From a virus (lineage: Duplodnaviria; Caudoviricetes): a DNA stretch of 51,702 nucleotides. The position numbers were made by a program, and so were the translations under genes. The DNA lies in IMG/VR virus record IMGVR_UViG_3300037483_000246, positions 1 through 51,702 of that record; one strand, 5' to 3'. Positions within the stretch are counted from its first letter, which is position 1. The number at the start of each line of letters is the position of its first letter. Shown here piece after piece: positions 1-51,702 of the stretch. The notes below the pieces were generated by a model that ran no database searches, had not been told where the DNA came from, and was given only the letters and a program-made list of their open reading frames with translations.

Positions 1-250
1 GCGGCAGTCCTGTAGCCGGTGTTCTTCGCGGCCCTCTGGTCGCCGGTCTTCGTCGCGGCACTCTGGTCGCCGGTGTTCGTCGCGGCACTCCAGTCGCCGG
101 TGTTCGTCGCGGCACTCCAGTCGCCGGTGTTCGTCGCGGCACTCTGGTCGCCGGTGTTCGTCGCGGCACTCTGGTCGCCGGTGTTCGTCGCGGCACTCTG
201 GTCGCCGGTGTTCGTCGCGGCACTCCAGTAGCCGGTGTTCGTCGCGGCAC
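1..250 (-). repeat. 27-nt tandem coding repeat (~9 units, TNTG-xx-SAA)
   Basis: Unit CTCTGGTCGCCGGTGTTCGTCGCGGCA read directly; variable codon pair gives YW, DQ, DW, YR. Confidence 0.97.
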
Positions 251-15767: not shown

Positions 15768-16739
15768 ATGGCTGACGAAACCCCGGTTCCCGGCACGTCT
15801 ACACCCGCTGCACCCGCTGCACCTGCTGCACCTGCTGCACCTGCTGCACCTGCACCTGCTGCACCTGCACCTGCACCCGCTGCACCTGCACCCGCTGCAC
15901 CTGCACCTGCTGCACCTGCTGCACCTGCTGCACCTGCCGATCCTGCCCCGAAGGACTGGGCGGCCATCCGCACCGAGATCGCTGGCGAGGATGATAAGCT
16001 GCTGAAGCGTCTGTCCCGTTACAGTTCCGTTAAGGACGTGACCGACGCGCTGATCGCGGCGCAGAACAAGATCGCCAGTGGCACGCTGAAGTCTGCCCTC
16101 CCGACGGACCCGACACCCGAGCAGTTGGCCGAGTGGCGCGAGGAGAACGGCATCCCCGCGTCTGCCGACAAGTACGACACCACGCTGCCCGACGGCATGG
16201 TGGTGGGCGAGTTCGACAAGCCGGTAGTAGACGGATTCGCCAAGACAGCGCACGAGTTGAACCTCACACCGGCTCAGGTAAAGAGCACCCTGGCGTGGTA
16301 CTTCAAGCAGCAGGAGGCCCAGGTCACCGAGTTGCGCCAAGCCGATGCCGCGTTCACGAACGAGTCCAACGAGAAGATGCGGGAGGAGTGGGGCAGCGAG
16401 TACAAGCTGAACATGAACCTGATCGACGGCTTGCTCACGCAGATTCCTGAAGATGGCAAGGCGCTCATCATGGGCGCCCGGCTGGCTGACGGTACGCCTC
16501 TCGGCAGCAATCCGAAAATCCAGCGCTGGCTCGCCAATCTGGCGCGCGAGGTGAACCCCACGGCCACCGTCGTTCCGGGTTCGGGCACCAACGCCGCCCA
16601 GGCCATCGAGACTGAGATCGCCAACATCTCGAAGCTCATGGGGGACCGCAACTCCGAATACTGGAAGGGTCCGAATGCCGAGAAGATGCAGTCCCGGTAT
16701 CGCGAGTTGGTGGACGTGCAAGAAAAGTTGAAAAAGTAG
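15768..16739 (+). CDS. capsid scaffolding/assembly protein
   Basis: Acidic helical protein immediately before the capsid gene; Pro-Ala N-terminus. Confidence 0.85.
   Translation: MADETPVPGTSTPAAPAAPAAPAAPAAPAPAAPAPAPAAPAPAAPAPAAPAAPAAPADPAPKDWAAIRTEIAGEDDKLLKRLSRYSSVKDVTDALIAAQNKIASGTLKSALPTDPTPEQLAEWREENGIPASADKYDTTLPDGMVVGEFDKPVVDGFAKTAHELNLTPAQVKSTLAWYFKQQEAQVTELRQADAAFTNESNEKMREEWGSEYKLNMNLIDGLLTQIPEDGKALIMGARLADGTPLGSNPKIQRWLANLAREVNPTATVVPGSGTNAAQAIETEIANISKLMGDRNSEYWKGPNAEKMQSRYRELVDVQEKLKK
15803..15940 (+). repeat. CCTGCTGCA/CCTGCA low-complexity repeat encoding (PAA/PA)n
   Basis: Read directly. Confidence 0.95.
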
Positions 16740-27900: not shown

Positions 27901-30900
27901 ACGCGAGCAGGCAAATGAGCTCGGCATCAAGTACGGCCAGCAGTCTGTGCTCACAAGGGATGGCTTGGTGTACCCCGACGGAACAGTAAACCCGGCCAAG
28001 AGCGTCACGGTGCACGCCAAGGCCCCGAGCGACTTCTACAGCACGATCCCGTCTACCGGCGCGACGTTCGCGGTGGAGATCGACTTCGGGAAGACGCTGC
28101 CCACCTCCGACGAGCGCGTAGGCAGCGTCACCGTCGAGGCAGTGCACTTCTCCCGCGCGCCGCGCAGTTCGTTGTCCGGGCGCATGTACGGCACCGGCAT
28201 CAAAGGCGCGGAAGCTCGCCGCCTGGGCGATCCGAATGCGCACCCGAAGATCAAGCAGCGCGTCTCCTTCTACGTGGACGAGGGCCAGGGTGTACGCCCT
28301 GAACCGGGTGTGGGCGCCTTCCGCCACGGGCTGACGCTGGATAACATCTACGACGGCGCGAAGAACCCGCTCGGGTTTCCCACCGAATCGAACGCCTTCG
28401 AGGCTGCAGTCGTCGAGGCTGGCTTCGATGGCTACTACATCCGCGAAGGCTTCGGCAATCAAGGCGTCGGCGTGCTGCTGGGCGACGCGACGCAGGACGT
28501 GGAGGTGGACATTCCGCCCCGTCCGACCAAGTACGCCCAGGCCCTGAACGAAGTCGCCGAGACGCTGCCCCCCGCCGGCAAGCTGGAACAGCAAGACCTC
28601 GCCGATCTGCGCAAGCTCTGGGCAATGTACGCTGCCAGCGAGACGGCTGCGCAGTACGGCACGGCCCAGGTGAAGGCACAAGCCGACGACGCACCGGGTA
28701 TTCAACGCGCGCTGAGCGATACCCTCGACGCCGTGATGCAGGGCATGGTGGACACCTCGGTGAAGAACATCACCCACTGGCACAAGGGCACGCAGCGTCT
28801 TCCTGCCGGCGGCTTCGCCTATGAGATCGTGAGCGGAAACAGCAGCGCGGCAGTCTACCTCGACATGGCCGACCGTTCGATGCAGATCGATATCACCCGC
28901 TGGGGTGAAGGCCGCGGTGGTTCCGGCGTCTACAAGGCGCTGCTCGATTTCGCGCAAGCGAACGGCTTCGTCTTCTACGGCGACGCGCAGGGCATCTCGG
29001 TGGCCGGCATCAAGCGTCGCTTGGAGAACTTGCTGTCGCACGCCCTGCAGTCGGGCGACACCAGCTACATGCGCTTGCACCCGAAGCAGATCGACTTCAT
29101 CGAGCAGGAGACGGGCCTGAAGGTGAACTGGACTGACGACTCGAAAAATAATGTTGAACAAATGCTAAATGCGTCGTATAATTTAGCCAACCTCGACATA
29201 CCGGAGTTGAAAAATGTCTACTTCGATTTTACGCAACGTGAATTCATCGCCCGAAATACAGGCGCTCCTGCCGATCTTGCAGGACTCGTCGCCAAGGCCC
29301 GACGGAACCCTGACCAGGTACGAAGAGAAGGTGCGCCTGGCTTGGCCTCTGCTAAGCGCACGGTTTTCGCGAACACCCTACTTTCGGCAAAAGGGGAAAC
29401 TCGACGTACCGTTTTTGCTGAGATGGCTCGGCTCTCACTGGAACAACTACCCGGAGCCGAACGCCTCCTTTATCAGTCGGAACCCCCTGGAGAACGTCCA
29501 CCTTTCTATAGCGCCCTGACCCGCGCGTTCGAAGAAACCAAGCTGGCCAAGGCCTCGCCGGATCAATGGCTCGGCACCCTCAAGAGCTTGACGCAGAAAG
29601 GCGTCAAGCCGATGGAGATCGAATACACCGGCCTGCAAGAAAGGCTTGAAGTGCGTAAGGACAAGGCTGACAGCTGGCACGTCTACGAAAATGGCGTCGT
29701 GGTGTCTACGCGTCCCGCCACCGATCCGAAGCCGGAGGGCGCCGACGTGCGCCTGTACCAGCCTTCCAAAGTGGTGACCAAGGAAGAGATCATCGACTTC
29801 TTGAAAGAGAACGCCGTCACGGTGGAGCCGCGTGTCTACGGCGGCGAAGGCGTCGTGACTGAGTTCGACTTCACGTTTGGCCAATGGGAAACTGAAGAAC
29901 CGGACGAGAACTGGCTGCGAGATCAGGCGCAGGATCGCGTGCGCGGAATGGGTGAGGACGAACTGAGCAGCGGGTTGGAAGGCATCGCGGACGAGGACGA
30001 AGATGGCAGCATTGACACCGCCATCGAGGCTGTGAGGGGCTACATAAACGAAAGCGGCCCAGGCCAGAGCGCACAGAAAACGGAAGGTACTAGAGGGTAC
30101 AAGCTGTTTGAAAAACTCGTGGAGGGCGCCTTCGAACAGGAGCGCGAGAATTACTGGGACGATGGCGATTCGCCGCAGAACAGTAGCGTCGAAGTCGAAG
30201 CTGGCGGGCGCACTTTCAACTTCACCTGGACGAACAGTTACCACGAGCACTTCTTGTACGCTCACGAGTCGAACAAGAGCGTTGAAATCTCGGGTCGCAG
30301 CATAGACAGCGCCGACATCGAATCCGCGATCCGTGAATTCCTTGGCACGGAGTACGGCATCTCCGAAGTCGATGACGAAAAAGCGCCGAAGTTCGAAAGC
30401 TACAAGCTCTCTGGCGGCGAGAACTATCGCGAGCGTTTGCTGCTGAACAAGTCGCACAAGGGCGAGACGTTCAGCTATACCAACCACTTCGACGACGACA
30501 ACATCATCGGCCACTCGCGTGTCGATGACCGTGAAGTCCCGGTCGAGGCCATCGAAAAAGAATTCCCCGAACTCGCCGCGCGCATGAAGGCTGAAGGCCG
30601 CACGACAGCGAAGGTGTACTTCATCGAAGAGGTGCAGTCCGACTGGGCACAGCAAGGGCGCGAACGGCCTGAAGCGCAGAAGCATTACGCGATGGAAGAC
30701 CTCGTGTTTAACGAGAAGGCCTCGGCGAGAAACGACGATAGACTTGCGCGGATCAAAGTCAGCGCGATCAGCGACCGCAGTGGGTACACCCACACAAGGG
30801 ATAGGGGGCTGGTGAAGGACCAGGTAGAGTTCTGGCACCTGCACACGGAAGAAGACTTGAGTGCCTACCCCAGCGAGATATACACCACGAAGGAAGCAGC

Positions 30901-33900
30901 AGAGAGAGGTCGCTTTGCGGTGGCGGGTGCCGTGTGGGTTATTGAGGCACCGAATCAAGTCTTCGAGATTTTGCGCGCCCAGCACCCCACAGTCGAAGAG
31001 GCAAAAAGGTATATCGCGGACGTGAAGACCACGATGGTTCCGGGCGAGATGACGGCGTTCGAACTGGCTCGCAAACAGGGGGCCTTGCAGCGCAAGCTGG
31101 ACGCGCTCAGGAAAGAAGCTCGCGCCCTCGCGCAAGGCCCTGAAGATGACGCCACAAACGCTGAGTACCAGAGCGCCCAAGATCGCATCGCGGAGGTGCG
31201 GGGCCAGTTAGAAGAGATCGGCAACAAGGTCGTCACACCTGGCGCCTTCGTAGAATCCACCGATGCATGGGTTGGCCTCGTGGTGAAGGACGCAGTACAC
31301 CAGGCTGCGAAGGGTGGCTTCGACCTGATCTCGTGGACAACTGGCGACCAGCAGACGCAGCGCTGGTCTTACGGCCTGCGCAAGCAGGTCGATCTGATCG
31401 AGTGGACGAAATCCGAAGAGGGGAAGATTCACATCGTCGCGATGCAGCGCGGCGTCACCAAGGCGGACACCAAGTACGGCGAGAACGATCTCTCTGCCGC
31501 TATCGGCAAGACGATGGCGAAGCGCATCATCGAAGACCCGAACCAGAACGGGTTCATCGAAGGAGAGGGCATCACCGTCGCCGACCTCGGCATGACGAAG
31601 TTCTACGGTGACACGGCAGGACTCGATCCCTCTGGCAAGCCCGCGATCCTCACCAAGGTGGCGAATCAGGTGGCGAAGAAGCTGGGCGGCGGGCAGGTGG
31701 TAGCCGCCAAGCTGAACCCTGCCTTCGGCCGCATGTCCGACAGGGAGAAAGGGAGCGCGCTGAATGTGCAACCTACGTTTGAAGTCACGCTTCCCATGCG
31801 TGTCGCCGCGTTACAGGGACAGGTGCTGTTCCAGTCCTTCACGGTTGACGCTGAGCAGGTGAAGAAGCTGCAGGAGAAGCTGGACACATCGAAGGTAGAT
31901 GCAGAAGAGTATTACAAGCGCGGCTATCGCATCGACGATTTCGGGAGCATGGACCGCACCGGCGAGGACCTGTCGGCAAGCGATATGTTCCAGAAGAACC
32001 GCGGTACTTTCAACCCTGACACGCTGACGATCAGCCTGCTGAAGGATGCAGACCTGACCACGTTCTTGCACGAGACGGGGCACTTCTTCCTTGAAATGGA
32101 AGCAGCGCTCGCGAGCGATCCTCGCGCCACGCCGGAGATGCGCGACGACTTCACGAAGGTGCTGAACTGGTTCGGCGTGAAAGACCTGACCGAGTGGAAC
32201 GCGCTCTCCTTCGAGCAGAAGCGCTCGCACCACGAGAAGTTCGCACGCGGCTTCGAGGCGTACCTGTTCGAAGGCAAGGCGCCGTCGAATGATCTGCGCT
32301 CGATCTTTGCATCCTTCAAGACCTGGCTGCTGCACGTCTACCGCAGCATCACGAACCTGAATGTCGAACTCACCGACGAAGTGCGTGGGGTGTTCGACCG
32401 CATGCTCGCATCGGAAGAAGCCATCGCGACTGTGCAGCGTCGCACGGGCCTGACTGACGCGATGATCGAGGCGGCGAACTCGAAGGACAAGGCCGCCTAT
32501 CTCGCGCTCAATCTTGCGGCGGGGGATAACGCCGGCGACGACTTGCAGCGTCGTTCGCTGCGCGACATGAAGTGGCTGTCGAACGCCAAGTCGCAAGAGT
32601 TGAAGAAGCTGCAGCGCGAAGCGGCCAGCAAGCGCAAGGAAGTTCGCGCCGAAGTGACCGCCGAGGTGAACGCAGAGCCAATCAACCAGGCACGCGCGTT
32701 CCTGCGCAAGGGCACGACCACCGGCCCCGATGGCGAGAGCATCCAAGCCACCGAAGGGTTCCGCCTGAACCACGCTATCGTCGCGGAGATGTACCCCGAG
32801 ACGATGCTGGCCCGCCCTGATCTGTCGAAGCTCCGCGGCATGACAGAAGCCGATGGTCTGCATCCCGATCTGGTTGCGGATATGTTCGGCTTCCGCTCTG
32901 GCGACGCGCTGATCCGCGAGCTGATCGACGGGGAGAACCCCCGCGACAAGATCAACGGCATGACCGATCAGCGCATGATGGAGCGCTACGGCGACCTGAA
33001 CGACGAACGGGCCATCGAGAACGCGGCCAACTCCGCCGTGCACAACGAGGCGCGCGCACGCTTCATGGCCACCGGGCTGAAGATGCTGTCGGACTCCAAG
33101 CTGCCCGCCTCGCAGATTCAGAAAGCTGCCACGGATGCCGCCAACCAAGCCATCGCTGCGAAGAAGGTGCGCGATCTGCACCCGGCCAAGCACATCGCCG
33201 CCGAGACGAAAGCGAACAAGGACGTGCTGAAGAACGCAGCCAAGGACGTGAAAGCGGCGCAGCGCGCACAGCGCTCGGCCCTGCTGAACAATCGGCTGGC
33301 GAAGGCTTCGCAGGATGCCCAGGAAGAAGTGCGCAAGGGTGTGGACCGCATGACGCGCACGCAGAAGGCTGCCGCTCAGAAGAACATGCGCGGCGAGTAC
33401 CTGATCCAGTTGAACGAGTTGCTGGCTCGTTTCGATCTGCGCAAGAGCACGACCCTCAAGGAGATCGACGCGAAGCGCACGCCGTTGGCTGAGTGGCTGG
33501 CAGCCGAGTCGGAGCGCATGTCTGCGGTGATGCCAGACATCCCGGCTTGGATTCTGAACGAAGCGAACCGCACCTCCTACAAGGACCTGACCGTCGAGGA
33601 GTTCCGCGGGGTGGTGGATACCGTCAAGCAGCTGGAGATGATGGCCCGCCGTGAGGAGACGCAGTACCAGGCCATCCGCGGCATGAAGTTCGCCGAGGAG
33701 CGCAAGGCCCTGCTGGATCGCATCCGCGAGTTCCACCCTGAAGCCTTCGATCTGAATGGTGAACCCCTCGGCATGGCGCCGAAGTTCGTCAAGCATCTCG
33801 GCGACAAGGTGGAGGAGCTTGGCGAGAAGTTCGCCGGTGAGTTCCTGAACGCGGAGACGCTGGTGAACCTGCTTGAAGGCGGCGAGTTCGGCATCGCTCA

Positions 33901-35761
33901 CGAGTCGCTGCTGGGCCGCATGAGCAAGCGCGCGGACTGGAAGGCCACCCGCCTCGAAGGCATCTACAACAAGATGGCCCCGCTGTTCGGGCAGTACAGC
34001 GTGAAGGAGCGCTACGACTTCGCACGCAAGGACATCGGCGCCCCCATCGGCATGAGCCTCACCCGCGAGAACGCGCTGGTCGTCGCACTGCTGCACGGCA
34101 ATACCGAAGGCCGTGAGCGCTTGGCCAACTATGGCTGGAGCGAGAAGAAGCAGGAGGAGATAATCAACTTGCTGGACGACCGCGACATGGCCCTCGCGCA
34201 AGGTATCTGGGACTTGTTCGACAACGATCTCTGGCCCGAACTGAAAGACCTGAATGACCGCACCCGCGGCAAGGCCCCGCCCAAAGTCGTCGCGATCCAG
34301 GTCTTCCACAGGGGCGGCACCTACCGTGGTGGCTACTTCCGCCTGAAGTACGACACGAACCTGGACGAGCGCGCGTACCGCATGGACGAAGGCGCCGCCG
34401 TGAAGGAACTCCTCGGGGGCGGACTGGGCATGTCGGCGAAGACCGGCCAAGGCGCCAGCACGGAGCGCAAGCAGAACGTCACCATGCGCCCCCGGCTTGA
34501 TCTCGGTGTGTTCGCCGAAGCCGTGTCCGAGACGGTGCACGACATCGCCTACCGTGAAGCAGTGGCGGACACGATGCGCATGCTGAACGACACCCGCGTG
34601 CAGAACACGATCAAAACCGCTGCCGGCGTGCCAGCGTACCGTGCCCTCGTCACCCGCGTGCGCGAGATCGCAGCGCCTCCCCGCAACCCTTCCGGCTTCG
34701 TCGAGAAGACGCTCAGCATCGCGCGCAAGAACACGATTGTCACCCTAATGTCCGGGGTGAACACCGCGTTGCAGAACTTCACCGGCTTTGTTTCAGCCAC
34801 TGCGCGGGTGAATCCCGGTAGGCTGGCGAAAGAGATCGCGCTGTTTTACAGCACGAAGATGACCGAGCGGGTGAACTTTGCTATGGAGCATTCGGAGTAC
34901 ATGCGCCATCGGCACAACGCCTTCGAGCGCGATCTACAAAACGAGATCAAGAAGATGACTGTGAACGCAAGCATCATGCCTGACACCGGCGCATGGCTGA
35001 CACTCATGGCCCTTGTAGATAAGGGCACCAGCGTTCCCGTCTGGAATGCGGCATTCCACGAAGGAATGGTAAAGTACGAAAACGATAATGGTAAAGCCGC
35101 AGACTATGCCGACCATGTTGTGCGCCAGTCGCAAGGTTCTGGCCGTGAACTGGACGTGGCCCAGATCATGTCGGGCCACGGGGGCTATGGCCAGCTGAAG
35201 CGCGTCTTCACCATGTTCTACAGCTACTTCAACGCGCAGCTTGGCATGCTGGTGCGCAGCGGTGTTATAAACGCACACGCCTCCAAGAAGAACCCCGCGA
35301 TGGCGGTGGCTCGTTTCACGAAGGACTTCATGGTGATCGTGATCCTGCCGGCAGTGCTGACGGCTATGATCTTCAAGAAGGACGACCCGGATGAAGACCC
35401 GGAGAAGTGGCTGCACAAGTATAGCCACGCCATCGCGATGTACGGCTTGGCCATGATCCCTCTGGTGCGCGATGTCGGCAGCTTCGCATGGGCATCTTTC
35501 GACCACGATGTCAAGAACTACGGGTACAAGATCACCCCGGTGCAGTCAGCTGGCGAGGGGGTTGTCAAGGGTGCCGTAGCCGCGCGAGACATCGCCGTAG
35601 GGGAAGGCGACGACAGGGACCTGAAGAACCTCATAATGGGCACAAGTTTCGCTGTAGGCCTACCCGGCAAGTTGATCTCGGACATCACCCTTGGGACGAA
35701 GGCTTTCTTGGAGGGTGAAGCCGGCCCCGAGGCAATCCTGTTTGGCCCCCCGAAAAAGTGA
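24932..35761 (+). CDS. giant internal virion / ejection polyvalent protein (3609 aa)
   Basis: Single open frame; HDFFGH..GEENAW..ETRGQNSW domain, DUF3293-like TAENP domain, ART-like HFS...GFDGY domain, GNAT-like domain, FYS...EEVQSDW domain, HETGH..HEKFA zincin, helical C-terminal core. Confidence 0.9.
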   Translation: MADDALDAALIQFKQEQDDRTTLGATASIHQAITQNPDEMARYNAISRKTGFDPLLIATDPAVKVEAERRAKMQDIDLPGLVQTHPKTASALTDANLAALVSDDVGTLQNLENAFSRGLKGTLRGGDAGAIQESAEILNTISRIQSGELNDYGKISGASRYASLFAGVGGTPEAVEQKRIATERRLAENAVEFAQRTAGMKSTGASAEYERFSAEKGLGAFSALFDAPFKITGEVIAESMGAMLPAIPTIVGSGVGGGVRGLATATGLTSAGIEYANSLSGILTDMGVNLSDARAVREAMATPKFIEANRQAMVKAGVIGAFDAATAGVAGKMLRPTMLGNIAAQTVVQAAGGAAGEAVGSVASGQEVSLSAVLAEAIGEAPGGVVDVGLLAFNKARVKEQARPSEEIIRAEEAHAALTEISQTATSAKLRERDPAQFKAFMQSMVEDSDLKEVFVDGTVLRDALAQAPIEVQQKFAQDMPEVVRQIGEAAGTDGLVRVPVEDYATHVAGTELDATILPNLKTEVDGLTYSQAQEQVKGQTEQMKAEADQLLAEKEKDTEFQADAQQVYDALYSRIEGAKRFTPDANKKYAALQQAYFITRAHKMGIKPSELLARFDIRVTAERTPGAELEQGVTLLEGLPQPKMTLKTGAYTPKPYAPAHKAAREYANKAGIEYAPPRKYAKVNEARAAKIAAEYEKMPHAPNDPEVAKAYAQLIKEAVQQWDAMLSTGLKVEFIPEGAPDFYAENPHGFIDDIARNNHLWVFSTRAGFGTGQDFTPKDHPLLAETDIEISGQKALANDIFRAVHDFFGHAKDGVGFRAAGEENAWRAHAAMFSPLARRALTTETRGQNSWLNYGPFGEANRKAKAGETHFADQKAGLLPEWVSEEGREDVAPVPTPASSDYGFRRRAKARVATLDDFKPNKVKNLLAKTDWAILTAENPNAQQLSVEENAQRNADLRADLEAMGAKFVEVEGKYGGNVENSVAITGITREQANELGIKYGQQSVLTRDGLVYPDGTVNPAKSVTVHAKAPSDFYSTIPSTGATFAVEIDFGKTLPTSDERVGSVTVEAVHFSRAPRSSLSGRMYGTGIKGAEARRLGDPNAHPKIKQRVSFYVDEGQGVRPEPGVGAFRHGLTLDNIYDGAKNPLGFPTESNAFEAAVVEAGFDGYYIREGFGNQGVGVLLGDATQDVEVDIPPRPTKYAQALNEVAETLPPAGKLEQQDLADLRKLWAMYAASETAAQYGTAQVKAQADDAPGIQRALSDTLDAVMQGMVDTSVKNITHWHKGTQRLPAGGFAYEIVSGNSSAAVYLDMADRSMQIDITRWGEGRGGSGVYKALLDFAQANGFVFYGDAQGISVAGIKRRLENLLSHALQSGDTSYMRLHPKQIDFIEQETGLKVNWTDDSKNNVEQMLNASYNLANLDIPELKNVYFDFTQREFIARNTGAPADLAGLVAKARRNPDQVRREGAPGLASAKRTVFANTLLSAKGETRRTVFAEMARLSLEQLPGAERLLYQSEPPGERPPFYSALTRAFEETKLAKASPDQWLGTLKSLTQKGVKPMEIEYTGLQERLEVRKDKADSWHVYENGVVVSTRPATDPKPEGADVRLYQPSKVVTKEEIIDFLKENAVTVEPRVYGGEGVVTEFDFTFGQWETEEPDENWLRDQAQDRVRGMGEDELSSGLEGIADEDEDGSIDTAIEAVRGYINESGPGQSAQKTEGTRGYKLFEKLVEGAFEQERENYWDDGDSPQNSSVEVEAGGRTFNFTWTNSYHEHFLYAHESNKSVEISGRSIDSADIESAIREFLGTEYGISEVDDEKAPKFESYKLSGGENYRERLLLNKSHKGETFSYTNHFDDDNIIGHSRVDDREVPVEAIEKEFPELAARMKAEGRTTAKVYFIEEVQSDWAQQGRERPEAQKHYAMEDLVFNEKASARNDDRLARIKVSAISDRSGYTHTRDRGLVKDQVEFWHLHTEEDLSAYPSEIYTTKEAAERGRFAVAGAVWVIEAPNQVFEILRAQHPTVEEAKRYIADVKTTMVPGEMTAFELARKQGALQRKLDALRKEARALAQGPEDDATNAEYQSAQDRIAEVRGQLEEIGNKVVTPGAFVESTDAWVGLVVKDAVHQAAKGGFDLISWTTGDQQTQRWSYGLRKQVDLIEWTKSEEGKIHIVAMQRGVTKADTKYGENDLSAAIGKTMAKRIIEDPNQNGFIEGEGITVADLGMTKFYGDTAGLDPSGKPAILTKVANQVAKKLGGGQVVAAKLNPAFGRMSDREKGSALNVQPTFEVTLPMRVAALQGQVLFQSFTVDAEQVKKLQEKLDTSKVDAEEYYKRGYRIDDFGSMDRTGEDLSASDMFQKNRGTFNPDTLTISLLKDADLTTFLHETGHFFLEMEAALASDPRATPEMRDDFTKVLNWFGVKDLTEWNALSFEQKRSHHEKFARGFEAYLFEGKAPSNDLRSIFASFKTWLLHVYRSITNLNVELTDEVRGVFDRMLASEEAIATVQRRTGLTDAMIEAANSKDKAAYLALNLAAGDNAGDDLQRRSLRDMKWLSNAKSQELKKLQREAASKRKEVRAEVTAEVNAEPINQARAFLRKGTTTGPDGESIQATEGFRLNHAIVAEMYPETMLARPDLSKLRGMTEADGLHPDLVADMFGFRSGDALIRELIDGENPRDKINGMTDQRMMERYGDLNDERAIENAANSAVHNEARARFMATGLKMLSDSKLPASQIQKAATDAANQAIAAKKVRDLHPAKHIAAETKANKDVLKNAAKDVKAAQRAQRSALLNNRLAKASQDAQEEVRKGVDRMTRTQKAAAQKNMRGEYLIQLNELLARFDLRKSTTLKEIDAKRTPLAEWLAAESERMSAVMPDIPAWILNEANRTSYKDLTVEEFRGVVDTVKQLEMMARREETQYQAIRGMKFAEERKALLDRIREFHPEAFDLNGEPLGMAPKFVKHLGDKVEELGEKFAGEFLNAETLVNLLEGGEFGIAHESLLGRMSKRADWKATRLEGIYNKMAPLFGQYSVKERYDFARKDIGAPIGMSLTRENALVVALLHGNTEGRERLANYGWSEKKQEEIINLLDDRDMALAQGIWDLFDNDLWPELKDLNDRTRGKAPPKVVAIQVFHRGGTYRGGYFRLKYDTNLDERAYRMDEGAAVKELLGGGLGMSAKTGQGASTERKQNVTMRPRLDLGVFAEAVSETVHDIAYREAVADTMRMLNDTRVQNTIKTAAGVPAYRALVTRVREIAAPPRNPSGFVEKTLSIARKNTIVTLMSGVNTALQNFTGFVSATARVNPGRLAKEIALFYSTKMTERVNFAMEHSEYMRHRHNAFERDLQNEIKKMTVNASIMPDTGAWLTLMALVDKGTSVPVWNAAFHEGMVKYENDNGKAADYADHVVRQSQGSGRELDVAQIMSGHGGYGQLKRVFTMFYSYFNAQLGMLVRSGVINAHASKKNPAMAVARFTKDFMVIVILPAVLTAMIFKKDDPDEDPEKWLHKYSHAIAMYGLAMIPLVRDVGSFAWASFDHDVKNYGYKITPVQSAGEGVVKGAVAARDIAVGEGDDRDLKNLIMGTSFAVGLPGKLISDITLGTKAFLEGEAGPEAILFGPPKK

Positions 35762-44873: not shown

Positions 44874-46994
44874 TTAATCCTTCCGGTATCTGTACGCCTC
44901 GAAGCCCGCAGCTGCAAGGGGCAGCCCCTCGGCCCACTCAGGCACCGTGGCCATGATCCCTGCAAGGCCATCGACGCTGTGATCCAGGTCGTCGGGCGCC
45001 TCGGTGATAAGCTCGTCGTGCACGGTGAGCACGACTTCGTAGCCTTGCCCCTCCGCTATCGGCATCGCGTGGGCCATGTTGTCGCGCGCTGAAGCCTGGC
45101 AGATGTTCTCGAACAACTTGCCGCCGTAGGTGCCCAGCCGTTGCCACTGGCGGGTGTACTGGTTCACACCCATGTAGCTGCAGCTGCCGCTGTCGTCCAC
45201 CTGCGGCTGCGGGTAGCACAAGAAGCGGCCCGAGGGGAGACGGATGCGCAGCCAGGCTCCATCCTTGCGGAATGCAACGCGGCGCACGAGGAACCACTCA
45301 CCCGGATGATTCACCGCGGAGATGAACCCCTGCTGCAGTTCCTTCCAATAGGAAGAGATAGCAGGGTGCGCTGCACGCCACAGAGACTTCAGCGAGTTGC
45401 ATACGACATAGACATCATCGGGCAGGCCATACGTCGTGCGGCGCTGCTTCAGCGTCCACTTCAGGAAGTCGCGAGACTCCTTCACCGTGTCTTCGGGGAG
45501 CAACGGCAGCGCCTTCGCAGCCATGTCGTCGAGGTCGATCCGGTAAGTCTCGGCACCCGTGACGAACGCACCGACACCGCCTTCGTATTGCAGCATGAGT
45601 TCCTGCACCTTACCGATCTGACGCATGGTGCCGTCGCCGTTCTTCTTGTTGTCGAGCACGACCGCGGGCGGCACGTTGAATGACTTGCTGTAGGCCATCA
45701 CGTAGTTGTCGAACTCGACAGCGCCGGAGTCGTAATCGCGGAAGTATTTCAGCTTCCACTCTTCCCCCGCGATCCAGGCGGCCTTACGGCCTTCGATGTT
45801 CGACAGGTCGGCGACGACCAGCTTGCGCCCTGGCGGCGCGATGATGCAGCCCCGCACGGCGTTCGAGATGACCTGCATCACGTCGTCGTAGAAGAACTCG
45901 CAGGCGTTCGACTTGATAACCTCGATGCCGAACTCGATGTCCTTCTGCTTCATGTCGGGACGCTTCAAGTTCTGCGGCTGGAACATGCGCCCTGACCAGC
46001 GCCCGGTACGCGCAGCACCATCGAACTGCAACAGGCCGCGCAGGCGCCCATCCTCGGACGTGCAGCGAAGCAGTGTGTTGTACTTGCTCACGCTCGTGGT
46101 GCTGGCCTGGAGGCGATTGGCCAGCAGTTCGCGCAGCGCCTCGGGCAGATCGGGATCGTTCAGCCGGCGCTCGATGGTGTCCATTTGGAGATCGGGCAGT
46201 GACACGCCGTAGGATTCCAGCAGGTGTTCGAGCAGCTTGTCGCGCTGCGTGGTGGCCTGGACGGCGCCTTCCGTCAGTACCTGCGCCCGTGATGCAAGTA
46301 CGTCTTTCGCTCGCTCTGCAGCAAGGACAGCGCCTCGCGCAAGGGCACGATCAACGGCCACGCCTCGCGCGTTGATTTTCTGGTCCAGAAGCCACAGGTA
46401 GTACTCGAAGCCGCGGTAGTTCCAGCGCGGGACTTTCCGGTAGACTTCACGCATCGAGGTGATGTCGGCCTTGGCGTATTCGATGAAGCGTTGCCACTCT
46501 TCGGGGTGCGTTTCACGGGTAGCTCTCCTAAGTTTCGTTTTCTTCGGTCGGGGTTTGCAGAACAGTTGAATTAGGGCCTTGCCTTCCTTGTGCTTCGCCT
46601 TGTCGGCACCGATGTTCAGCACGGCGCAGAGCGTGTCAAGAGAGCCGGGCAGCGAGTGTGCATACGCGCAGGCCATTGTGTCGAACACGCGCAAGTGCGG
46701 CAGCGGCGGGATGTCATACAGCTGGCCGACAGCGTTCAGCACCGTGAGGTCGAACATACCGCCGTTGTGCCATACCGTGCGGCGTTCTTGATCCTCCAGC
46801 GCTTCGCGCAAGTCGTCGGGCATCGGCTCGAAGGTCGTGAGGTCCCAGCACTTCGGCTCGCCTTCGCCTATGGCGTAGGGGAACAGCATGACTTCAGCTT
46901 CGGTGGCGTAGACGTGCGCGCCGCACTTCTTCAAGTCGATTGTCGAGAACGTCTCCAGGTCGGCGAAGAGTTCGTTGGTGATGGCGTGGCTCAT
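44874..46994 (-). CDS. polA: family A DNA polymerase with 3'-5' exonuclease
   Basis: DLET exo I, RTGRWSG..QPQNL, ADLSNIEGR (motif A), RQIGKVQEL (motif B), VHDE (motif C). Confidence 0.95.
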   Translation of the reverse strand: MSHAITNELFADLETFSTIDLKKCGAHVYATEAEVMLFPYAIGEGEPKCWDLTTFEPMPDDLREALEDQERRTVWHNGGMFDLTVLNAVGQLYDIPPLPHLRVFDTMACAYAHSLPGSLDTLCAVLNIGADKAKHKEGKALIQLFCKPRPKKTKLRRATRETHPEEWQRFIEYAKADITSMREVYRKVPRWNYRGFEYYLWLLDQKINARGVAVDRALARGAVLAAERAKDVLASRAQVLTEGAVQATTQRDKLLEHLLESYGVSLPDLQMDTIERRLNDPDLPEALRELLANRLQASTTSVSKYNTLLRCTSEDGRLRGLLQFDGAARTGRWSGRMFQPQNLKRPDMKQKDIEFGIEVIKSNACEFFYDDVMQVISNAVRGCIIAPPGRKLVVADLSNIEGRKAAWIAGEEWKLKYFRDYDSGAVEFDNYVMAYSKSFNVPPAVVLDNKKNGDGTMRQIGKVQELMLQYEGGVGAFVTGAETYRIDLDDMAAKALPLLPEDTVKESRDFLKWTLKQRRTTYGLPDDVYVVCNSLKSLWRAAHPAISSYWKELQQGFISAVNHPGEWFLVRRVAFRKDGAWLRIRLPSGRFLCYPQPQVDDSGSCSYMGVNQYTRQWQRLGTYGGKLFENICQASARDNMAHAMPIAEGQGYEVVLTVHDELITEAPDDLDHSVDGLAGIMATVPEWAEGLPLAAAGFEAYRYRKD

Positions 46995-47452
46995 TTGCGT
47001 TTTTGGGGAAACCCGGCCTTGCTCAATTCAGCCATCAGGTCGTTCAATGCTGGAAGTTGCTTGGTCTTTTCTGGAGGCTTCGGGATATACGCATCAAGCT
47101 CCGGTATGGCTGCGCGCATTTGACTATCGGTGGAGAACTGATAAACCACGTTCTTGACGTGCGCTCGAAGGTCTTTGCGTATCTTTTCGGATGCCTGATG
47201 ACGCAGCAGGATGGCTCTCAGTTCGTCGTGCGTTTTCCCCCCGGTGGGGAGGTAGTTAAACCCTGGGCAGTATTCAACTTTTACCCATCCGCGCGTTGTC
47301 TTGTCTTCCCAGAGCTTGCGGATTTTATCCGGCATCTTGGAAACGCAAACAGCGAGCGCATCCTTGTCGCGCTGGTCGCTTGAGTATTCATGCGGGGTAT
47401 TACCCATCACAGCGTTGACAATGGACTCTTTTAAGGCGTTCGTAAGCTTCAT
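46991..47452 (-). CDS. Nmad5-like (nucleotide-modification-associated) protein
   Basis: MKLT...KESIV start and L......ST..Q....PEL..YIP end; adjacent to the polymerase. Confidence 0.6.
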   Translation of the reverse strand: MKLTNALKESIVNAVMGNTPHEYSSDQRDKDALAVCVSKMPDKIRKLWEDKTTRGWVKVEYCPGFNYLPTGGKTHDELRAILLRHQASEKIRKDLRAHVKNVVYQFSTDSQMRAAIPELDAYIPKPPEKTKQLPALNDLMAELSKAGFPQKRK

Positions 47453-47478
47453 GTTCTTCCCCTAATAAAATTCGTTAT

Positions 47479-47619
47479 AAAGCCGTTGCCGGGATTACCT
47501 GCCTAATAACTTGCGGGCGGTGAGCAGGTTGCGTACGCGCTATTCCTTTGGCACTCTATTGAAACAAGATCACGAGGGATAGAGTGTTGAGCATCCCGGC
47601 CTTTATGTCGTGTGGCTTT
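47479..47619. ncRNA. multibranch structured element
   Basis: AAAGCC/GGCTTT, GCCGGGAT/ATCCCGGC, ACCTGC/GCAGGT and CACTCTAT/ATAGAGTG nested pairings. Confidence 0.55.
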
Positions 47620-47668
47620 TTCATTCGCACGTTGGTTGACGCTAGGAACACCGCCCCCTCTATGTGTT

Positions 47669-47744
47669 TGGTGCGAAGTACGTGCGGGACTCGAACCCGC
47701 GACCGCCCCTGTAGGGAACTCTACCAGCTGAGCTAACGCACTTC
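47669..47744 (-). tRNA. atypical tRNA-like RNA (collapsed anticodon arm, 9-bp acceptor stem, encoded CCA)
   Basis: GAAGTGCGT TA GCTC AGCTGGTA GAGT TCCC-TACA-GGGG CGGTC GCGGG TTCGAGT CCCGC ACGTACTTC GCACCA. Confidence 0.8.
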
Positions 47745-47748
47745 TTCA

Positions 47749-47874
47749 TGTTGGCACGGATTTCGCGCGCCGCGTGCCAACAGAGAGCGATCCTACAGTC
47801 TCGGACAAGCAGCTGGCAATTTTTCGTTTTGTCACAGCTGTCGAGCTTTGAAAGCAGGATCGCTTTCTGTTGGC
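47749..47874. ncRNA. overlapping long hairpins
   Basis: TGTTGGCACG/CGTGCCAACA (47749-47782) and GCCAACAGAGAGCGATCCT/AGGATCGCTTTCTGTTGGC (47776-47874). Confidence 0.6.
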
Positions 47875-47976
47875 CCTCGCCCGAAGGCGAGGACCTTGTT
47901 GGGAAGGTTAAGGGCAGCAACCCCACGCATCCAAGCAGAGCAGTGTTGGCCCTCGCCCGAAGGCGAGGACCTTGTT
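47868..47976 (-). repeat. two identical 33-nt hairpin repeats separated by a 43-nt spacer
   Basis: AACAAGGTCCTCGCC-TTCG-GGCGAGGGCCAACA at 47868-47900 and 47944-47976. Confidence 0.95.
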
Positions 47977-47978
47977 AC

Positions 47979-48563
47979 TTACGCCAGAGCTTCTTCGTCC
48001 GCTGGCGCACCCAGGTCTTCGAAGCCGGCAACACTCGGAGCGCTACCCGAGAAGGCGTCGCCGTCCTTCACGAACTGGATCACGGAGAAGGAGGCACGCA
48101 CGCCAGGGTTTTCACCGGACTGGCAGTAGATGCTGACCTTCGCTTTCACGTAGCAACCAGCATACGGCTTGCCGTCGTCCGCCGTCAGCGGCGATGTGTC
48201 GCGGTCGATGATCGCGGGGCGGGGGGCCGCACCACCGTTTCGCGTCTTCGCGTTGCGGTGAGCGGACAGAGCCATCATGCCGGCATAGCCTTCGTAGTCG
48301 CGCAAGTCGCCGCTGAGGTAGCAATACTGGTTCTTCTGGCCGGCGTATTCCTTCAGCTTCGAAGCTGCCTTGTCTTTCCACTCCGTTTCGGCGGCCTTCT
48401 TGATCGCGGCGTTGACCGCTTTGTCGGACGCGCTGCCCGGCTCGACCAGGATGGTAGCGTTCCAGCGCGGGCGGTCATCGCCGGGTTTGAACTCCACGGG
48501 GTCCCACAGATCGGGGAATGACAGGCGACCTTCGATGATGAAATCGGTTTCTGCTTGGGCCAT
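47979..48563 (-). CDS. ssDNA-binding/annealing protein (DUF2815-like)
   Basis: RLSFP, YAGCYV, NPGVRA....IQFVKDGDAF, acidic C-terminal tail. Confidence 0.9.
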   Translation of the reverse strand: MAQAETDFIIEGRLSFPDLWDPVEFKPGDDRPRWNATILVEPGSASDKAVNAAIKKAAETEWKDKAASKLKEYAGQKNQYCYLSGDLRDYEGYAGMMALSAHRNAKTRNGGAAPRPAIIDRDTSPLTADDGKPYAGCYVKAKVSIYCQSGENPGVRASFSVIQFVKDGDAFSGSAPSVAGFEDLGAPADEEALA

Positions 48564-48607
48564 GATGGCTCCTTTCTTTGGTTGATGAAACTGTTTAACG
48601 AGTGCTT

Positions 48608-48636
48608 AGTATAACCGATGCTAATCAGTCGGTCAA
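48608..48636 (-). promoter_or_regulatory. early promoter upstream of SSB
   Basis: TTGACC-17nt-TATACT with TTAGCA in the spacer. Confidence 0.75.
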
Positions 48637-49926
48637 GGGGGTGAAGCCATCGAGCGCAGGTTTTATTTCGATAGCCTGGCGTTTGTCCGACGCGGGCGCC
48701 ACGTTGAAGCCGCCATCTTTCTGCGTGATGATCTCCAACACCCTCGGCCACTTCTTGCCCTTGCCGAGCAGTTTCTCCGCGGTGGTGGGCGAGATGACAC
48801 TGAACTCGTACATCTCGTCGCGCTTCAGCTTGAGGTGTTTCAGCAGGTCTTCGGCTTCTTCTTTGCTGGTCCACGAGCGATTACCCTTGCGACCCTGCAC
48901 GAGCTTGTAGCCCGGCACGACATTGCCTTGGAGCAGCTGACTCTCCGCTTCGGCGCGCACTGCCTTGCACCAGCCTTCGATCAGATCGACCGCGTTGAGG
49001 TGCTTGGCAAGCAGATCGTTGTTCCCCTGATCGACCACCACCGGGAGGGCATCGAAGCCGCTCAGGTCTACCTGCAACTCTTCGGCGACGAAGGTATCGT
49101 ACTTCGGGCAGCGAGCCTTCGCACGACAGAAGCGGCAGCCGTCTTCGGACACGTGCAGGTAATTGTCCATCCACTCGTTGAAGCTCACGTGCTTCGTGTC
49201 GTGAAACGCGGCACTCGCTTCGTCGCAAACCTTCGACCCAGCGCGCACTTCATCCTCGAACTCGCGGAGTTCTTCGATGGTGCAGGACCACTCGCTCGGC
49301 AGGGTGCTGACGCGCGGCTGCAAGATTGCCATGCGCACGTGCCCGACTTTCTCCACGCCACCAACGAGGTCGTCGATCCAGCGGAGAGCGCCAGAGGCAT
49401 AGATGCGCATTTGTTTGTTCTCGATAGCCGACACCTCGACCCCGCGACCGTACTTCAGGTCCACAACGATCAGTTCGTCCTCCGCCAGGATCACCGCGTC
49501 GCTGGTCCCCGTGGCTTCTTCCTCTCCTGTGAGGTGGTCGATAGGCACACTCACCTCGACGAACAGCACGCCGCCGGAGGACTTCACCAGATCGCGCACG
49601 TAATCGACGTAGACCTGGACATATCGCGCCATGTCGTCGTCAACCGTGAACTGGTTCAACGTCTTAACTGCGGACGTATGCACTTTCTGGAATGCTTCGT
49701 AGTGGTTGCCTTCTACGTCTTCCAGCAGTTCGACCACCTTGCCGAGGTAGTGCGCCGCATCGGTGCCACTCTGCAGGCACGTAGCTCCCAAGAAGTGCGC
49801 CGCAGTGCCCTCGTCGGAATACTTACTGGACGGGTTCGGCTGTTTCTCCGACAGCTTGATACTGCCGGGGCAGACGCCCATCCAGCGCTCCGCCGAGGAG
49901 GGGGACTTAACGGCGTGCTTAGCCAT
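48625..49926 (-). CDS. DUF2800 (Cas4-like PD-(D/E)xK) exonuclease
   Basis: HA..SPSS..RW..CPGS, EGTAAH, GTSD, DLKYGRG, QMRIYA, CRFCRAK..C, GYKLVQGR; ATG 49926. Confidence 0.9.
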   Translation of the reverse strand: MAKHAVKSPSSAERWMGVCPGSIKLSEKQPNPSSKYSDEGTAAHFLGATCLQSGTDAAHYLGKVVELLEDVEGNHYEAFQKVHTSAVKTLNQFTVDDDMARYVQVYVDYVRDLVKSSGGVLFVEVSVPIDHLTGEEEATGTSDAVILAEDELIVVDLKYGRGVEVSAIENKQMRIYASGALRWIDDLVGGVEKVGHVRMAILQPRVSTLPSEWSCTIEELREFEDEVRAGSKVCDEASAAFHDTKHVSFNEWMDNYLHVSEDGCRFCRAKARCPKYDTFVAEELQVDLSGFDALPVVVDQGNNDLLAKHLNAVDLIEGWCKAVRAEAESQLLQGNVVPGYKLVQGRKGNRSWTSKEEAEDLLKHLKLKRDEMYEFSVISPTTAEKLLGKGKKWPRVLEIITQKDGGFNVAPASDKRQAIEIKPALDGFTPLTD

Positions 49927-51293: not shown

Positions 51294-51702
51294 GCCTCCA
51301 CGAGCCTTCCGGCGTCGTCCAACGTGTACCAAGTATCCGCCTTCACGCCGCGTGTGCCTGCGATCTTCGCAACGATCTTCAGTATTTTGCCTGTTTCTTC
51401 ACTACGCAGAACCAGAACAATCGCACTACCCTTGGACGCCTTTGCTTTGGAGCGATACCCTGTCGCGATAGCGACAGAATGCTTCCCAGACACCTCTGCG
51501 GCACTCTGGTCGCCGGTGTTCGTCGCGGCACTCCAGTCGCCGGTGTTCGTCGCGGCACTCCGGCGGCCGGTGTTCGTCGCGGCACTCCGGCGGCCGGTGT
51601 TCGTCGCGGCACTCCAGTAGCCGGTGTTCGTCGCGGCACTCTGGTCGCCGGTGTTCGTCGCGGCACTCTGGTCGCCGGTGTTCGTCGCGGCACTCCGGGC
51701 GC
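51290..51702 (-). CDS. C-terminal part of the DUF7666-like repeat protein
   Basis: TNTGxxSAA repeats in frame with ...SVAIATG..SKAKA..GSAIVL...GVKADTWYTL. Confidence 0.85.
   Translation of the reverse strand, partial: ARSAATNTGDQSAATNTGDQSAATNTGYWSAATNTGRRSAATNTGRRSAATNTGDWSAATNTGDQSAAEVSGKHSVAIATGYRSKAKASKGSAIVLVLRSEETGKILKIVAKIAGTRGVKADTWYTLDDAGRLVEA
51497..51702 (-). repeat. 27-nt tandem coding repeat (~7.5 units)
   Basis: Same unit as at the window start; variable pairs DQ, YW, RR, DW. Confidence 0.97.

What the first reader, a model, noticed from the sequence alone, without database searches (positions are those of the whole stretch)
47460..47978. Candidate new system: a ~520-nt structured-RNA cassette punctuated by a tRNA mimic inside the replication operon
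Seen: in a tightly packed genome this gap has no credible ORF and is almost fully paired. In transcript order after SSB it runs repeat hairpin, 43-nt spacer, repeat hairpin, long stem, 10-bp hairpin, tRNA mimic, multibranch RNA, then Nmad5 and polymerase. Both repeats, the 10-bp hairpin and the tRNA mimic end in CCA(A)ACA. Inference: a polycistronic precursor cut by host RNase P/III/E, with the mimic as processing signal (analogous to mascRNA). It could release small RNAs acting as decoys, guides or antisense regulators, and uncouple SSB from polymerase expression.
Basis: inference. Interest (0 to 1): 0.8.

Follow-up and report, generated by a model that had tools for sequence, protein, structure and literature searches.

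The report
Structured RNA hub after phage SSB
The gap between a phage's DNA-binding-protein gene and its polymerase genes is a stack of folded RNA modules: a tRNA look-alike that close relatives swap for other folds, and a strongly conserved knotted RNA of an uncatalogued family whose job is still unknown.

Summary
Window 47453-47978 (minus strand) is a 526-nt non-coding spacer between an Enc34-type SSB gene and Nmad5/PolA. It folds better than every shuffle (z -4.15). It contains two identical UUCG hairpins, a long hairpin of about 105 nt, a 10-bp hairpin, a tRNA-like unit and a 189-nt multibranch RNA, here called M. The tRNA-like unit scores 44.2 bits on Rfam tRNA, but its anticodon arm is cut down to about 12 nt.

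Two new points:
1. The tRNA-like unit is not conserved. The closest relatives and two other samples carry 89 or 180 unrelated letters in the same slot, so it is a swappable cassette.
2. M is the conserved core.
   - It is 94-95% identical to relatives whose SSB gene is 84-88% identical.
   - It has four nested helices plus a pseudoknot, all with compensatory changes, in at least 7 lineages.
   - Probable distant copies exist, including one in the cultured Burkholderia phage BcepC6B.
   - No Rfam family matches it.

Most likely this is an intercistronic processing and stability hub, cut by host RNase III and RNase P/Z, that frames a functional RNA. No RNA data exist, so the mechanism is inferred.

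This scan has noted anticodon-less tRNA mimics in phage operons before on other DNA. It has not noted M before.

The parts
47979..48563 (-). SSB gene (Enc34/DUF2815 type), the upstream cistron
   Evidence: Pfam PF10991, E 5.2e-25. A promoter-like site (10 of 12 matches) lies at 48636-48608 just upstream.
47944..47976 (-). Repeat hairpin R, copy 1 (10-bp stem, UUCG loop), 2 nt after the SSB stop
   Evidence: Exact 33-nt direct repeat and inverted repeat. Relatives have one copy only. No U tract follows, and no terminator-like site was found on this strand.
47901..47943 (-). 43-nt spacer between the two R copies
   Evidence: Absent from relatives.
47868..47900 (-). Repeat hairpin R, copy 2
   Evidence: A weak STAXI-model match spans both copies (15.1 bits against a gathering score of 40.5, E 0.92).
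47771..47879 (-). Long irregular hairpin A (24-nt arms, 88% complementary, extended in the MFE fold): candidate RNase III-type site
   Evidence: Kept in L002/L071. Replaced by a different long hairpin in L070/L072.
47749..47782 (-). 10-bp hairpin; its 5' arm overlaps the 3' arm of hairpin A, so the two pairings exclude each other
   Evidence: Part of the segment 47671-47776 that relatives replace.
47674..47744 (-). tRNA-like unit: D arm, variable region and T arm kept; 9-bp acceptor-type helix; anticodon arm cut down to about 12 nt
   Evidence: Rfam tRNA 44.2 bits at 47676-47742. ARAGORN finds none. MFE fold. Absent from L002, L070 and L072 and from contigs of runs X2 and X3.
47477..47665 (-). 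Module M, the conserved pseudoknotted RNA. P1 47649-47656 with 47515-47522; P2 47614-47617 with 47481-47484; P3 47593-47600 with 47488-47495; P4 47579-47586 with 47552-47559; P5 47524-47528 with 47498-47502.
   Evidence: Covariance models R1 and R2. Pair counts. P1 table. 93.7-95.2% nt identity against 83.9-87.9% for the SSB gene. No Rfam family matches.
46991..47452 (-). Nmad5-domain gene, first cistron after the spacer; its end overlaps the PolA start
   Evidence: Pfam PF18757, E 4.5e-8. ORF coordinates.
44874..46994 (-). Family A DNA polymerase
   Evidence: Pfam. tblastn finds 57.5% identity to the BPP-1 group polymerase.

Best explanation
The spacer is transcribed with the SSB gene on the minus strand. 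It works as an intercistronic RNA hub built from separable modules.

Shown:
- It is non-coding and unusually structured.
- Its modules are exchanged as cassettes between close relatives.
- Its last 189 nt (M) belong to a conserved pseudoknotted RNA family that is under stronger constraint than the neighbouring gene.

Inferred:
- The UUCG hairpins protect the 3' end of the SSB message.
- The long hairpin is cut by RNase III.
- The tRNA-like unit is cut by RNase P and RNase Z/E.
- Together these cuts uncouple the abundant SSB message from the downstream Nmad5/polymerase message and define the 5' end of M.
- M then acts either as a structured 5' leader of the downstream replication genes or as a released stable RNA. 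Which of the two is open.
For: Structure:
- Fold z -4.15, with 0 of 100 shuffles as good.

tRNA shape:
- 44.2 bits on Rfam tRNA with a shortened anticodon arm.
- The T arm fits the pseudouridine-arm consensus that Forner et al. used to find t-elements (passages of PMC1920247).

Cassette behaviour:
- L002/L071 keep R, hairpin A and M but put another stem-closed module in place of the 10-bp hairpin and the tRNA-like unit.
- L070/L072 replace hairpin A as well.
- Contigs of runs X2 and X3 join 47670 to 47777 with 89 other letters. X3 also joins 47670 to 47944 with 180 other letters.

M:
- R1 found M in 15 of 99 sources at E <= 1.7e-4. These include L089 and L075/76/77, which were not in the seed.
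- R2 added L164 (E 1.4e-3) and L174 (E 3.2e-3).
- 83.2% of pair cells are paired against 65.5% in shuffles. The covariation score is 0.437 against 0.158 (0 of 500 shuffles), and 0.065-0.161 when the partners are slid.
- P3 is 97.7% paired, and 6 of its 8 pairs show changes on both sides.
- The P1 pseudoknot is 8/8 paired in 10 of 12 rows and 7/8 in the other 2, with 8 different 5' strands. Its 3' strand always lies 41-48 nt from the end of M. Fisher combination over 8 lineages gives p about 6e-7.
- P1 holds 8 G-U pairs against 1 A-C.
- A variant in run X2 changes one P4 pair A-U to G-C and two others A-U to G-U. This fits the sense strand only.
- M is 93.7-95.2% identical, against 83.9-87.9% for the SSB gene.

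Relatives:
- Canonical hairpin-plus-U terminators, and helices of 16-24 bp closing tRNA-like or T-loop-bearing domains, occupy the same interval in L158, L170, L171, L075 and L010.
Against: - No transcript ends are known for any member.
- The tRNA-like unit is dispensable in the nearest relatives, so it cannot be essential to the hub.
- Its acceptor-type helix is 9 bp, and no CCA directly follows the discriminator position. That is not an ideal RNase P/Z substrate.
- The R hairpins have no U tract.
- Over the nested helices, the G-U against A-C count is 16 against 11, which does not settle the strand.
- M lies before a terminator in L075 but after one in L158, L170 and L164. One transcript model does not fit all members.
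- The gene after M differs between members: Nmad5, other small proteins, or PolA. That weakens a gene-specific leader role.
- The BcepC6B, L173, L172 and L030 matches are at noise level for the model (E 0.03-0.6). They rest on position and on alignment to L174.
- The pair counts were made on an alignment fitted to the model.
Confidence: 0.5

Rival explanations
1. M is a cis-regulatory leader, either a riboswitch or a protein-binding operator in the manner of the T4 gene 32 or gene 43 operators. It would set translation or read-through of the downstream replication genes, and the upstream modules would be accessory. This overlaps with the best explanation.
For: - In 8 lineages M ends 12-30 nt before a ribosome site and start codon on the same strand.
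- Its junctions carry conserved unpaired stretches (alignments), as ligand- or protein-binding RNAs do.
- A C/U-rich stretch follows the P1 5' strand. By eye it can pair with the downstream ribosome site in W, L158, L170 and L174. No statistic was computed.
- In L075 M is followed by a hairpin-plus-U terminator, as an aptamer followed by an expression platform would be.
Against: - The gene after M is not constant.
- L003, L171 and L173 show no ribosome-site pairing by eye.
- In L075 about 200 nt and a terminator separate M from PolA.
- No ligand or protein partner can be named.
Confidence: 0.25
2. The spacer is recombination debris: a decaying tRNA gene plus hairpins left at mosaic joints, with no function of its own apart from possibly M.
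For: - The tRNA-like unit, the second R copy and hairpin A all vary between near relatives.
- The phage has no other tRNA.
Against: - Every remaining stem of the tRNA-like unit still pairs, and the anticodon arm is shortened symmetrically.
- tRNA-like units with odd anticodon loops recur after SSB in L171 and in L010/L150, where SSB is only 37-50% identical.
- The replacement cassettes are themselves closed by 9-13-bp stems.
- M is more conserved than the coding DNA next to it.
Confidence: 0.12
3. The structures act in DNA, not RNA: a replication origin or a primase/SSB-excluded hairpin signal placed inside the replication module.
For: - The site lies between the SSB and polymerase genes.
- Weinberg et al. 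raised the same idea for the SSB-associated STAXI motif (passage of PMC2864571).
- The G-U against A-C count over the nested helices is inconclusive.
Against: - P1 has 8 G-U pairs against 1 A-C.
- The changes in run X2 keep pairing only on the sense strand.
- UUCG loops stabilise RNA rather than DNA (the same passage).
- The tRNA shape and the terminators of relatives read on the gene strand.
- The minus strand folds better than the plus strand.
Confidence: 0.08
4. The two R repeats with their spacer are a CRISPR-like mini-array or repeat decoy, or the tRNA-like unit is a Y-RNA-type partner of a Ro60 protein.
For: - Formally this is repeat, 43-nt spacer, repeat.
- Bacterial Y RNAs carry tRNA-like domains (passages of PMC4201824).
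Against: - Relatives carry one repeat only.
- No TROVE/Ro60 gene is present in the complete record, while the control search found it in 2 of 14 genomes.
- In YrlA the long stem leaves from the anticodon position, not the acceptor position.
Confidence: 0.03

Closest known systems
t-elements and tRNA punctuation of organelle transcripts (Forner et al. 2007, PMC1920247, passages read; the punctuation model itself is recalled)
   Same: A non-canonical cloverleaf with a canonical T arm sits between cistrons, where RNase P/Z cuts would make mRNA ends.
   Different: This is a bacterial virus. The acceptor-type helix is 9 bp. No mapped ends exist. The unit is optional among close relatives.
mascRNA/MALAT1 3'-end processing (recalled, not read here)
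   Same: A tRNA-like unit with a shrunken anticodon arm is used as a cutting signal, not for decoding.
   Different: mascRNA belongs to a eukaryotic nuclear system. Here nothing shows that the small RNA is released or receives CCA.
RNase III sites between early genes of phage T7 (recalled, not read here)
   Same: Long imperfect hairpins lie between cistrons of one phage transcript. After cutting they leave a protective 3' hairpin.
   Different: There is no sequence relation. Cleavage has not been tested. Here several kinds of signal are stacked and followed by a conserved pseudoknotted RNA.
STAXI motif, Rfam RF01728 (Weinberg et al. 2010, PMC2864571, passage read)
   Same: Tandem structured units with UUCG loops lie next to an SSB gene. 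The model aligns hairpin plus tail across both R copies.
   Different: The score is 15.1 bits against a gathering score of 40.5. STAXI units are pseudoknots, usually three per array, in Enterobacterales. Relatives of this phage have a single R.
Bacterial Y RNAs (YrlA/Yrn1; Chen et al. 2014, PMC4201824, passages read)
   Same: A tRNA-like domain is joined to a long helix. It is non-decoding, and some are RNase P substrates.
   Different: The phage has no Ro60/TROVE gene. No Rfam hit. YrlA has a different topology.
Translational operators of T4 replication genes (gene 32 pseudoknot, gene 43 hairpin; recalled)
   Same: A structured RNA next to the SSB and polymerase genes could set their ratio.
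   Different: M lies 3' of SSB, is much larger, has five helices, and has no known protein partner.

Membership tests
tRNA (Rfam RF00005) | Score at or above the family's gathering score | tested here: met
   44.2 bits against 29, at 47676-47742 on the minus strand
tRNA (functional, decoding) | 5-bp anticodon stem with a 7-nt loop | tested here: not met
   Only 5 nt align where the model has 11. ARAGORN finds no tRNA. The MFE fold gives a 4-bp stem with a 3-nt loop.
tRNA (functional, decoding) | 7-bp acceptor stem followed by a discriminator base and CCA or a trimming site | tested here: inconclusive
   The helix runs for 9 bp, and CCA does not directly follow.
t-element-type processing signal | Non-canonical cloverleaf with the conserved T-arm consensus | tested here: met
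   T arm read. Consensus taken from PMC1920247.
t-element-type processing signal | Transcript ends coincide with the ends of the element; cut by RNase P/Z | not testable with these tools
   No RNA reads were available.
STAXI (RF01728) | Score at or above the gathering score | tested here: not met
   15.1 bits against 40.5, E 0.92
STAXI (RF01728) | Two or more tandem units with UUCG loops next to an SSB-type gene | tested here: met
   and the passage. Relatives have one unit only.
STAXI (RF01728) | Each unit is a pseudoknot | not tested
   Only plain hairpins were seen in the folds.
YrlA / bacterial Y RNA | Ro60 (TROVE) gene within about 4 kb on the same strand | tested here: not met
   PF05731 has no match in the whole record. 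The control search found it in 2 of 14 genomes.
tmRNA | Found by ARAGORN or by the Rfam tmRNA models | tested here: not met
Intrinsic terminator (for the R hairpins) | GC-rich hairpin followed by a U tract | tested here: not met
   No terminator-like site on the minus strand within 46900-48700
Any Rfam 15 family (for M) | A match at E <= 10 in an 801-nt search, or at the gathering score in the whole window | tested here: not met
   Also none in 21 relatives' loci at E <= 5.
M family (defined here) | Helices P2-P5 in order, with the P5 loop pairing to a 5' strand (P1); same strand as the SSB gene and after it | tested here: met
   The window scores 157-168 bits. Pair counts. P1 is 8/8 paired.

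The most novel reading that the evidence does not exclude
M is a new class of functional phage RNA, a ligand- or protein-sensing element or a stand-alone ribonucleoprotein or catalytic RNA of the replication module. The slot in front of it is a dedicated docking place where tRNA-shaped or T-loop-bearing cassettes are exchanged between phages to recruit host tRNA enzymes. That would make this a modular 'RNA operon' and not a passive spacer.
Probability: 0.25. Interest if true: 0.8.

Novelty: new variant of a known kind. Interest (0 to 1): 0.6.

Why it matters
Phage replication modules are usually annotated as proteins only. Here the best-conserved stretch of the SSB-polymerase interval is a non-coding pseudoknotted RNA that no catalogue holds, and a probable distant copy sits in a phage that can be grown (BcepC6B), so it can be tested directly.

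The locus also shows tRNA-like and long-stem modules being swapped as cassettes at one site. This gives a natural experiment on how phages use host RNase P/Z and RNase III to set the ratio of SSB to polymerase messages.

Tried and rejected
RNA evidence:
- The look-up of sequencing runs listed no RNA holder, so expression could not be examined. Only DNA contigs were laid.

Context of closer SSB relatives:
- The search for homologous proteins gave 197 proteins at E <= 1e-30. Relatives at 64-84% SSB identity therefore remain unseen.

Collection scans for M by pattern:
- The first pattern had a wrong gap range and found nothing.
- The corrected one found only the contigs of L158 and L002.
- An exact 50-nt scan for the tRNA-like unit found nothing.

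blastn against cultured phages:
- No match for the whole gap, the L171, L075 or L003 regions, or the 43-nt spacer.
- The tRNA-like unit gave only two weak tRNA-type hits.

Other tests:
- Phage-promoter idea for the conserved start of M: the motif occurs once in the window. The search for a phage RNA polymerase family was uninformative because the control found it nowhere.
- attP idea: no tyrosine integrase. In L150 the tRNA-like unit lies inside the prophage replication module.
- Strand test by G-U against A-C on the nested helices: 16 against 11, inconclusive.
- A MAFFT alignment trimmed to start at P1 did not put P1 in register. P1 was therefore counted by script and not with the count of structure pairs. 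The P1 starts were chosen by eye from the pairing, so the table leans towards the structure. The shuffles are the control.
- R2 on BcepC6B and BPP-1 found nothing with default filters. With filters off, BcepC6B and L173 appear only at noise level.
- R2 found nothing in Xanthomonas phage DoCa5.
- RNAalifold on A5 recovered only P3 and a local 5' hairpin.
- Two P3 changes in the X2 variant have partners near the contig end. Differences there are not listed, so their compensation is unknown.

Not consulted or not used:
- No supplements of papers were asked for. Supplementary motif lists of PMC2864571 and PMC4201824 might hold related sequences.
- The third covariance model, structure prediction, complex prediction and the protein atlas were not used.

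Full report
WHAT IS THERE

The window is a whole virus record of 51.7 kb that CheckV rates complete. On the minus strand it carries, in order:
- a DUF2800 nuclease gene
- an Enc34/DUF2815-type SSB gene (47979-48563)
- a 526-nt gap (47453-47978)
- an Nmad5-domain gene (46991-47452)
- a family A polymerase gene whose start overlaps the Nmad5 stop

The polymerase is 57.5% identical to that of the Bordetella BPP-1 group and 53% identical to that of Burkholderia phage BcepC6B.

- two exact 33-nt repeats, each a 10-bp hairpin with a UUCG loop
- a long imperfect hairpin
- a 10-bp hairpin whose 5' arm reuses the 3' arm of the long hairpin
- a tRNA-like unit
- a 189-nt multibranch stretch

The strand folds to -202.4 kcal/mol, against -175.4 +/- 6.5 for shuffles (z -4.15, 0 of 100 as good). 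The opposite strand gives z -2.86.

Rfam's tRNA model matches 47676-47742 at 44.2 bits, above its gathering score of 29. Only 5 nt stand where the anticodon arm has 11, and ARAGORN calls no tRNA. This is the only Rfam family reaching its threshold in the whole window.

THE tRNA-LIKE UNIT IS A CASSETTE, NOT THE CORE

Four metagenomic relatives have SSB proteins 87-91% identical to the window's: L002 (= L071 = L073), L070 and L072. All keep one R hairpin and the last roughly 190 nt almost unchanged. Between those two parts they differ:
- L002 keeps the long hairpin. In place of the 10-bp hairpin and the tRNA-like unit it has another domain closed by an 11-bp stem.
- L070 and L072 also replace the long hairpin with a different one, and carry a third domain closed by a 9-13-bp stem.

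Contigs from other samples show the same alleles:
- Runs X2 and X3 each have a contig that joins 47670 to 47777 with 89 other letters.
- X3 has one that joins 47670 to 47944 with 180 other letters.
- X3 has another that skips the second R copy.

So the tRNA-like unit and the R duplication are specific to this lineage.

tRNA-shaped units do recur at this position in distant relatives:
- ARAGORN calls an odd tRNA 98 nt after the SSB stop in L010/L150, a Psychrobacter prophage with 37% SSB identity.
- It calls another in L171 (50% identity). There the 'acceptor' helix runs for about 17 bp in the MFE fold.
- In total ARAGORN called 3 units in 86 loci scanned, and two of those loci are the same element.

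L158, L170 and L075 have helices of about 20 bp or more that close multibranch domains just after a canonical hairpin-plus-U terminator.

THE CONSERVED CORE IS MODULE M (47477-47665)

Conservation. M is 93.7-95.2% identical between the window and L070, L071 and L072. The SSB gene beside it is 83.9-87.9% identical.

Searches with covariance models:
- R1 was built from eight sequences of five lineages.
- R1 matched 15 of 99 sources at E <= 1.7e-4. Two of the lineages were not in the seed: L089 and L075/76/77.
- The rebuilt model R2 added L164 (E 1.4e-3) and L174 (E 3.2e-3) among 70 sources.
- L172, L030, L173 and BcepC6B appear only at noise level (E 0.03-0.6). They lie at the expected place. 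The BcepC6B stretch is 79% identical to L174 across SSB plus M. L174 itself is only a weak hit. I count these four as probable distant members.
- By eye, L074 also has the architecture, although the model missed it.

Pair counts on the model-fitted alignment of 11 sequences:
- 83.2% of pair cells are standard pairs, against 65.5 +/- 1.8% in shuffles (0 of 500 as high).
- 17 of 25 pairs show changes on both sides, against 11.5 in shuffles (1 of 500).
- The covariation score is 0.437, against 0.158 in shuffles (0 of 500) and 0.065-0.161 when partners are slid.
- Helix P3 is 97.7% paired, with changes on both sides in 6 of its 8 pairs.
- P4 is poorly aligned in several rows (67.9% paired).

A fifth helix, P1, joins a G-rich 5' strand to the first part of the P5 loop and makes a pseudoknot:
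- It is 8/8 paired in 10 of 12 rows and 7/8 in the other two.
- It has 8 different 5' strands.
- Its 3' strand always lies 41-48 nt from the end of M.
- Positional shuffles give p between 0.001 and 0.15 per lineage. Fisher combination over 8 lineages gives p about 6e-7.

No Rfam family matches M, either in the window or in 21 relatives' loci.

RNA OR DNA, AND WHICH STRAND

For the gene strand, and so most simply for RNA:
- P1 holds 8 G-U pairs against 1 A-C.
- The X2 variant of M changes one P4 pair from A-U to G-C and two others from A-U to G-U.
- The tRNA shape, the UUCG loops and the terminators of relatives all read on the gene strand.

Against a clear verdict: over the nested helices the count is 16 G-U against 11 A-C, which is inconclusive because several rows are misaligned.

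HOW IT PROBABLY WORKS

In L075, L174 and L089 M begins within a few nucleotides of the SSB stop (within about 16 nt in L089), so it is co-transcribed with SSB. A promoter-like site lies just upstream of the window's SSB gene.

In the window three kinds of classical processing and stability signals stand between SSB and M:
- stable hairpins with no U tract
- a long duplex
- a tRNA shape whose T arm fits the consensus used to find plant-mitochondrial t-elements

The simplest reading has three parts. First, the SSB message is stabilised at its 3' end. Second, RNase III and RNase P/Z cut the precursor. Third, M is left either as the structured 5' end of the Nmad5/polymerase message or as a free RNA. 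This is inference. No RNA run holds the region (see Tried and rejected).

Points that do not fit neatly:
- The cassette is optional.
- The acceptor-type helix is 9 bp and has no adjacent CCA.
- M lies before a terminator in L075 but after one in L158, L170 and L164.
- The gene after M varies.

COMPARISON WITH WHAT IS KNOWN

- The tRNA-like unit works like a t-element or mascRNA-type signal and is not a decoding tRNA.
- It is not a Y RNA. The record has no TROVE gene, and YrlA has a different topology.
- It is not a tmRNA.
- The paired R hairpins resemble the SSB-associated STAXI motif: tandem units, UUCG loops, and a weak model match of 15.1 bits. They fail its threshold of 40.5 bits.
- M has no catalogued relative. 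My literature searches turned up no description of it. That covers only the held open-access library.

WHAT THIS SCAN SAW BEFORE

Earlier notes of this scan describe anticodon-less tRNA mimics punctuating phage operons in many other genomes. The look-up returned 111 notes from at least 105 genomes that hold the search words, and I saw eight of them. These are unchecked AI notes. I took from them only the pointer to Forner et al., which I then read.

VERDICT

This is a real, modular, structured non-coding region. The noteworthy result is M: an uncatalogued, strongly constrained pseudoknotted RNA family of SSB/PolA-type phage replication modules, with a probable copy in cultured phage BcepC6B.

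Noticed in passing
L158:3215-3400, L170:3070-3260, L179 (Xanthomonas phage vB_Xar_IVIA-DoCa5, NC_073026.1) locus 1690-1790: The interior of the long-stem module upstream of M in L158 and L170 is 79% identical to a stretch of DoCa5. In DoCa5 it lies in an unannotated 560-nt gap between the terminase and ribonucleotide reductase genes. Two hairpins covary among the three sequences. In DoCa5 it follows what looks by eye like a normal tRNA-Met. It may be a second uncatalogued phage RNA motif linked to tRNAs.
   Followed up: partly
L156:3077-3200 and L157:3077-3186: Right after the SSB gene, these two near-identical contigs carry the same long inverted repeat, but the roughly 55-nt segment between the arms is reverse-complemented in one relative to the other. 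This is either an invertible segment or an assembly flip of a hairpin.
   Followed up: no
window 1-340 and 51417-51702: A tandem array of 27-nt units (about 10 copies) runs off both ends of the record. The record is probably circularly permuted, with a repeat-bearing region across the junction.
   Followed up: no
window 15775-15973: A run of 9-nt units (14 overlapping copies) lies inside a plus-strand ORF, giving a three-residue protein repeat.
   Followed up: no
window 24932-35761: A single 3609-aa ORF on the plus strand. Earlier notes on this window describe it as a multi-domain virion protein. Not examined here.
   Followed up: no
window 48608-48636 (minus strand): A promoter-like site matching 10 of 12 consensus positions lies between the DUF2800 nuclease and SSB genes. 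SSB may therefore have its own promoter.
   Followed up: no
L075:2340-2560: In this lineage M directly follows the SSB stop. It is followed by a canonical terminator whose U tract pairs with a downstream A run, closing a domain of about 190 nt in front of PolA.
   Followed up: partly
L177 (BcepC6B, NC_005887.1) locus 572-722: The annotated start of gp37 (locus 669) lies inside the stretch that aligns with M of L172-L174. The true start may be further downstream.
   Followed up: no
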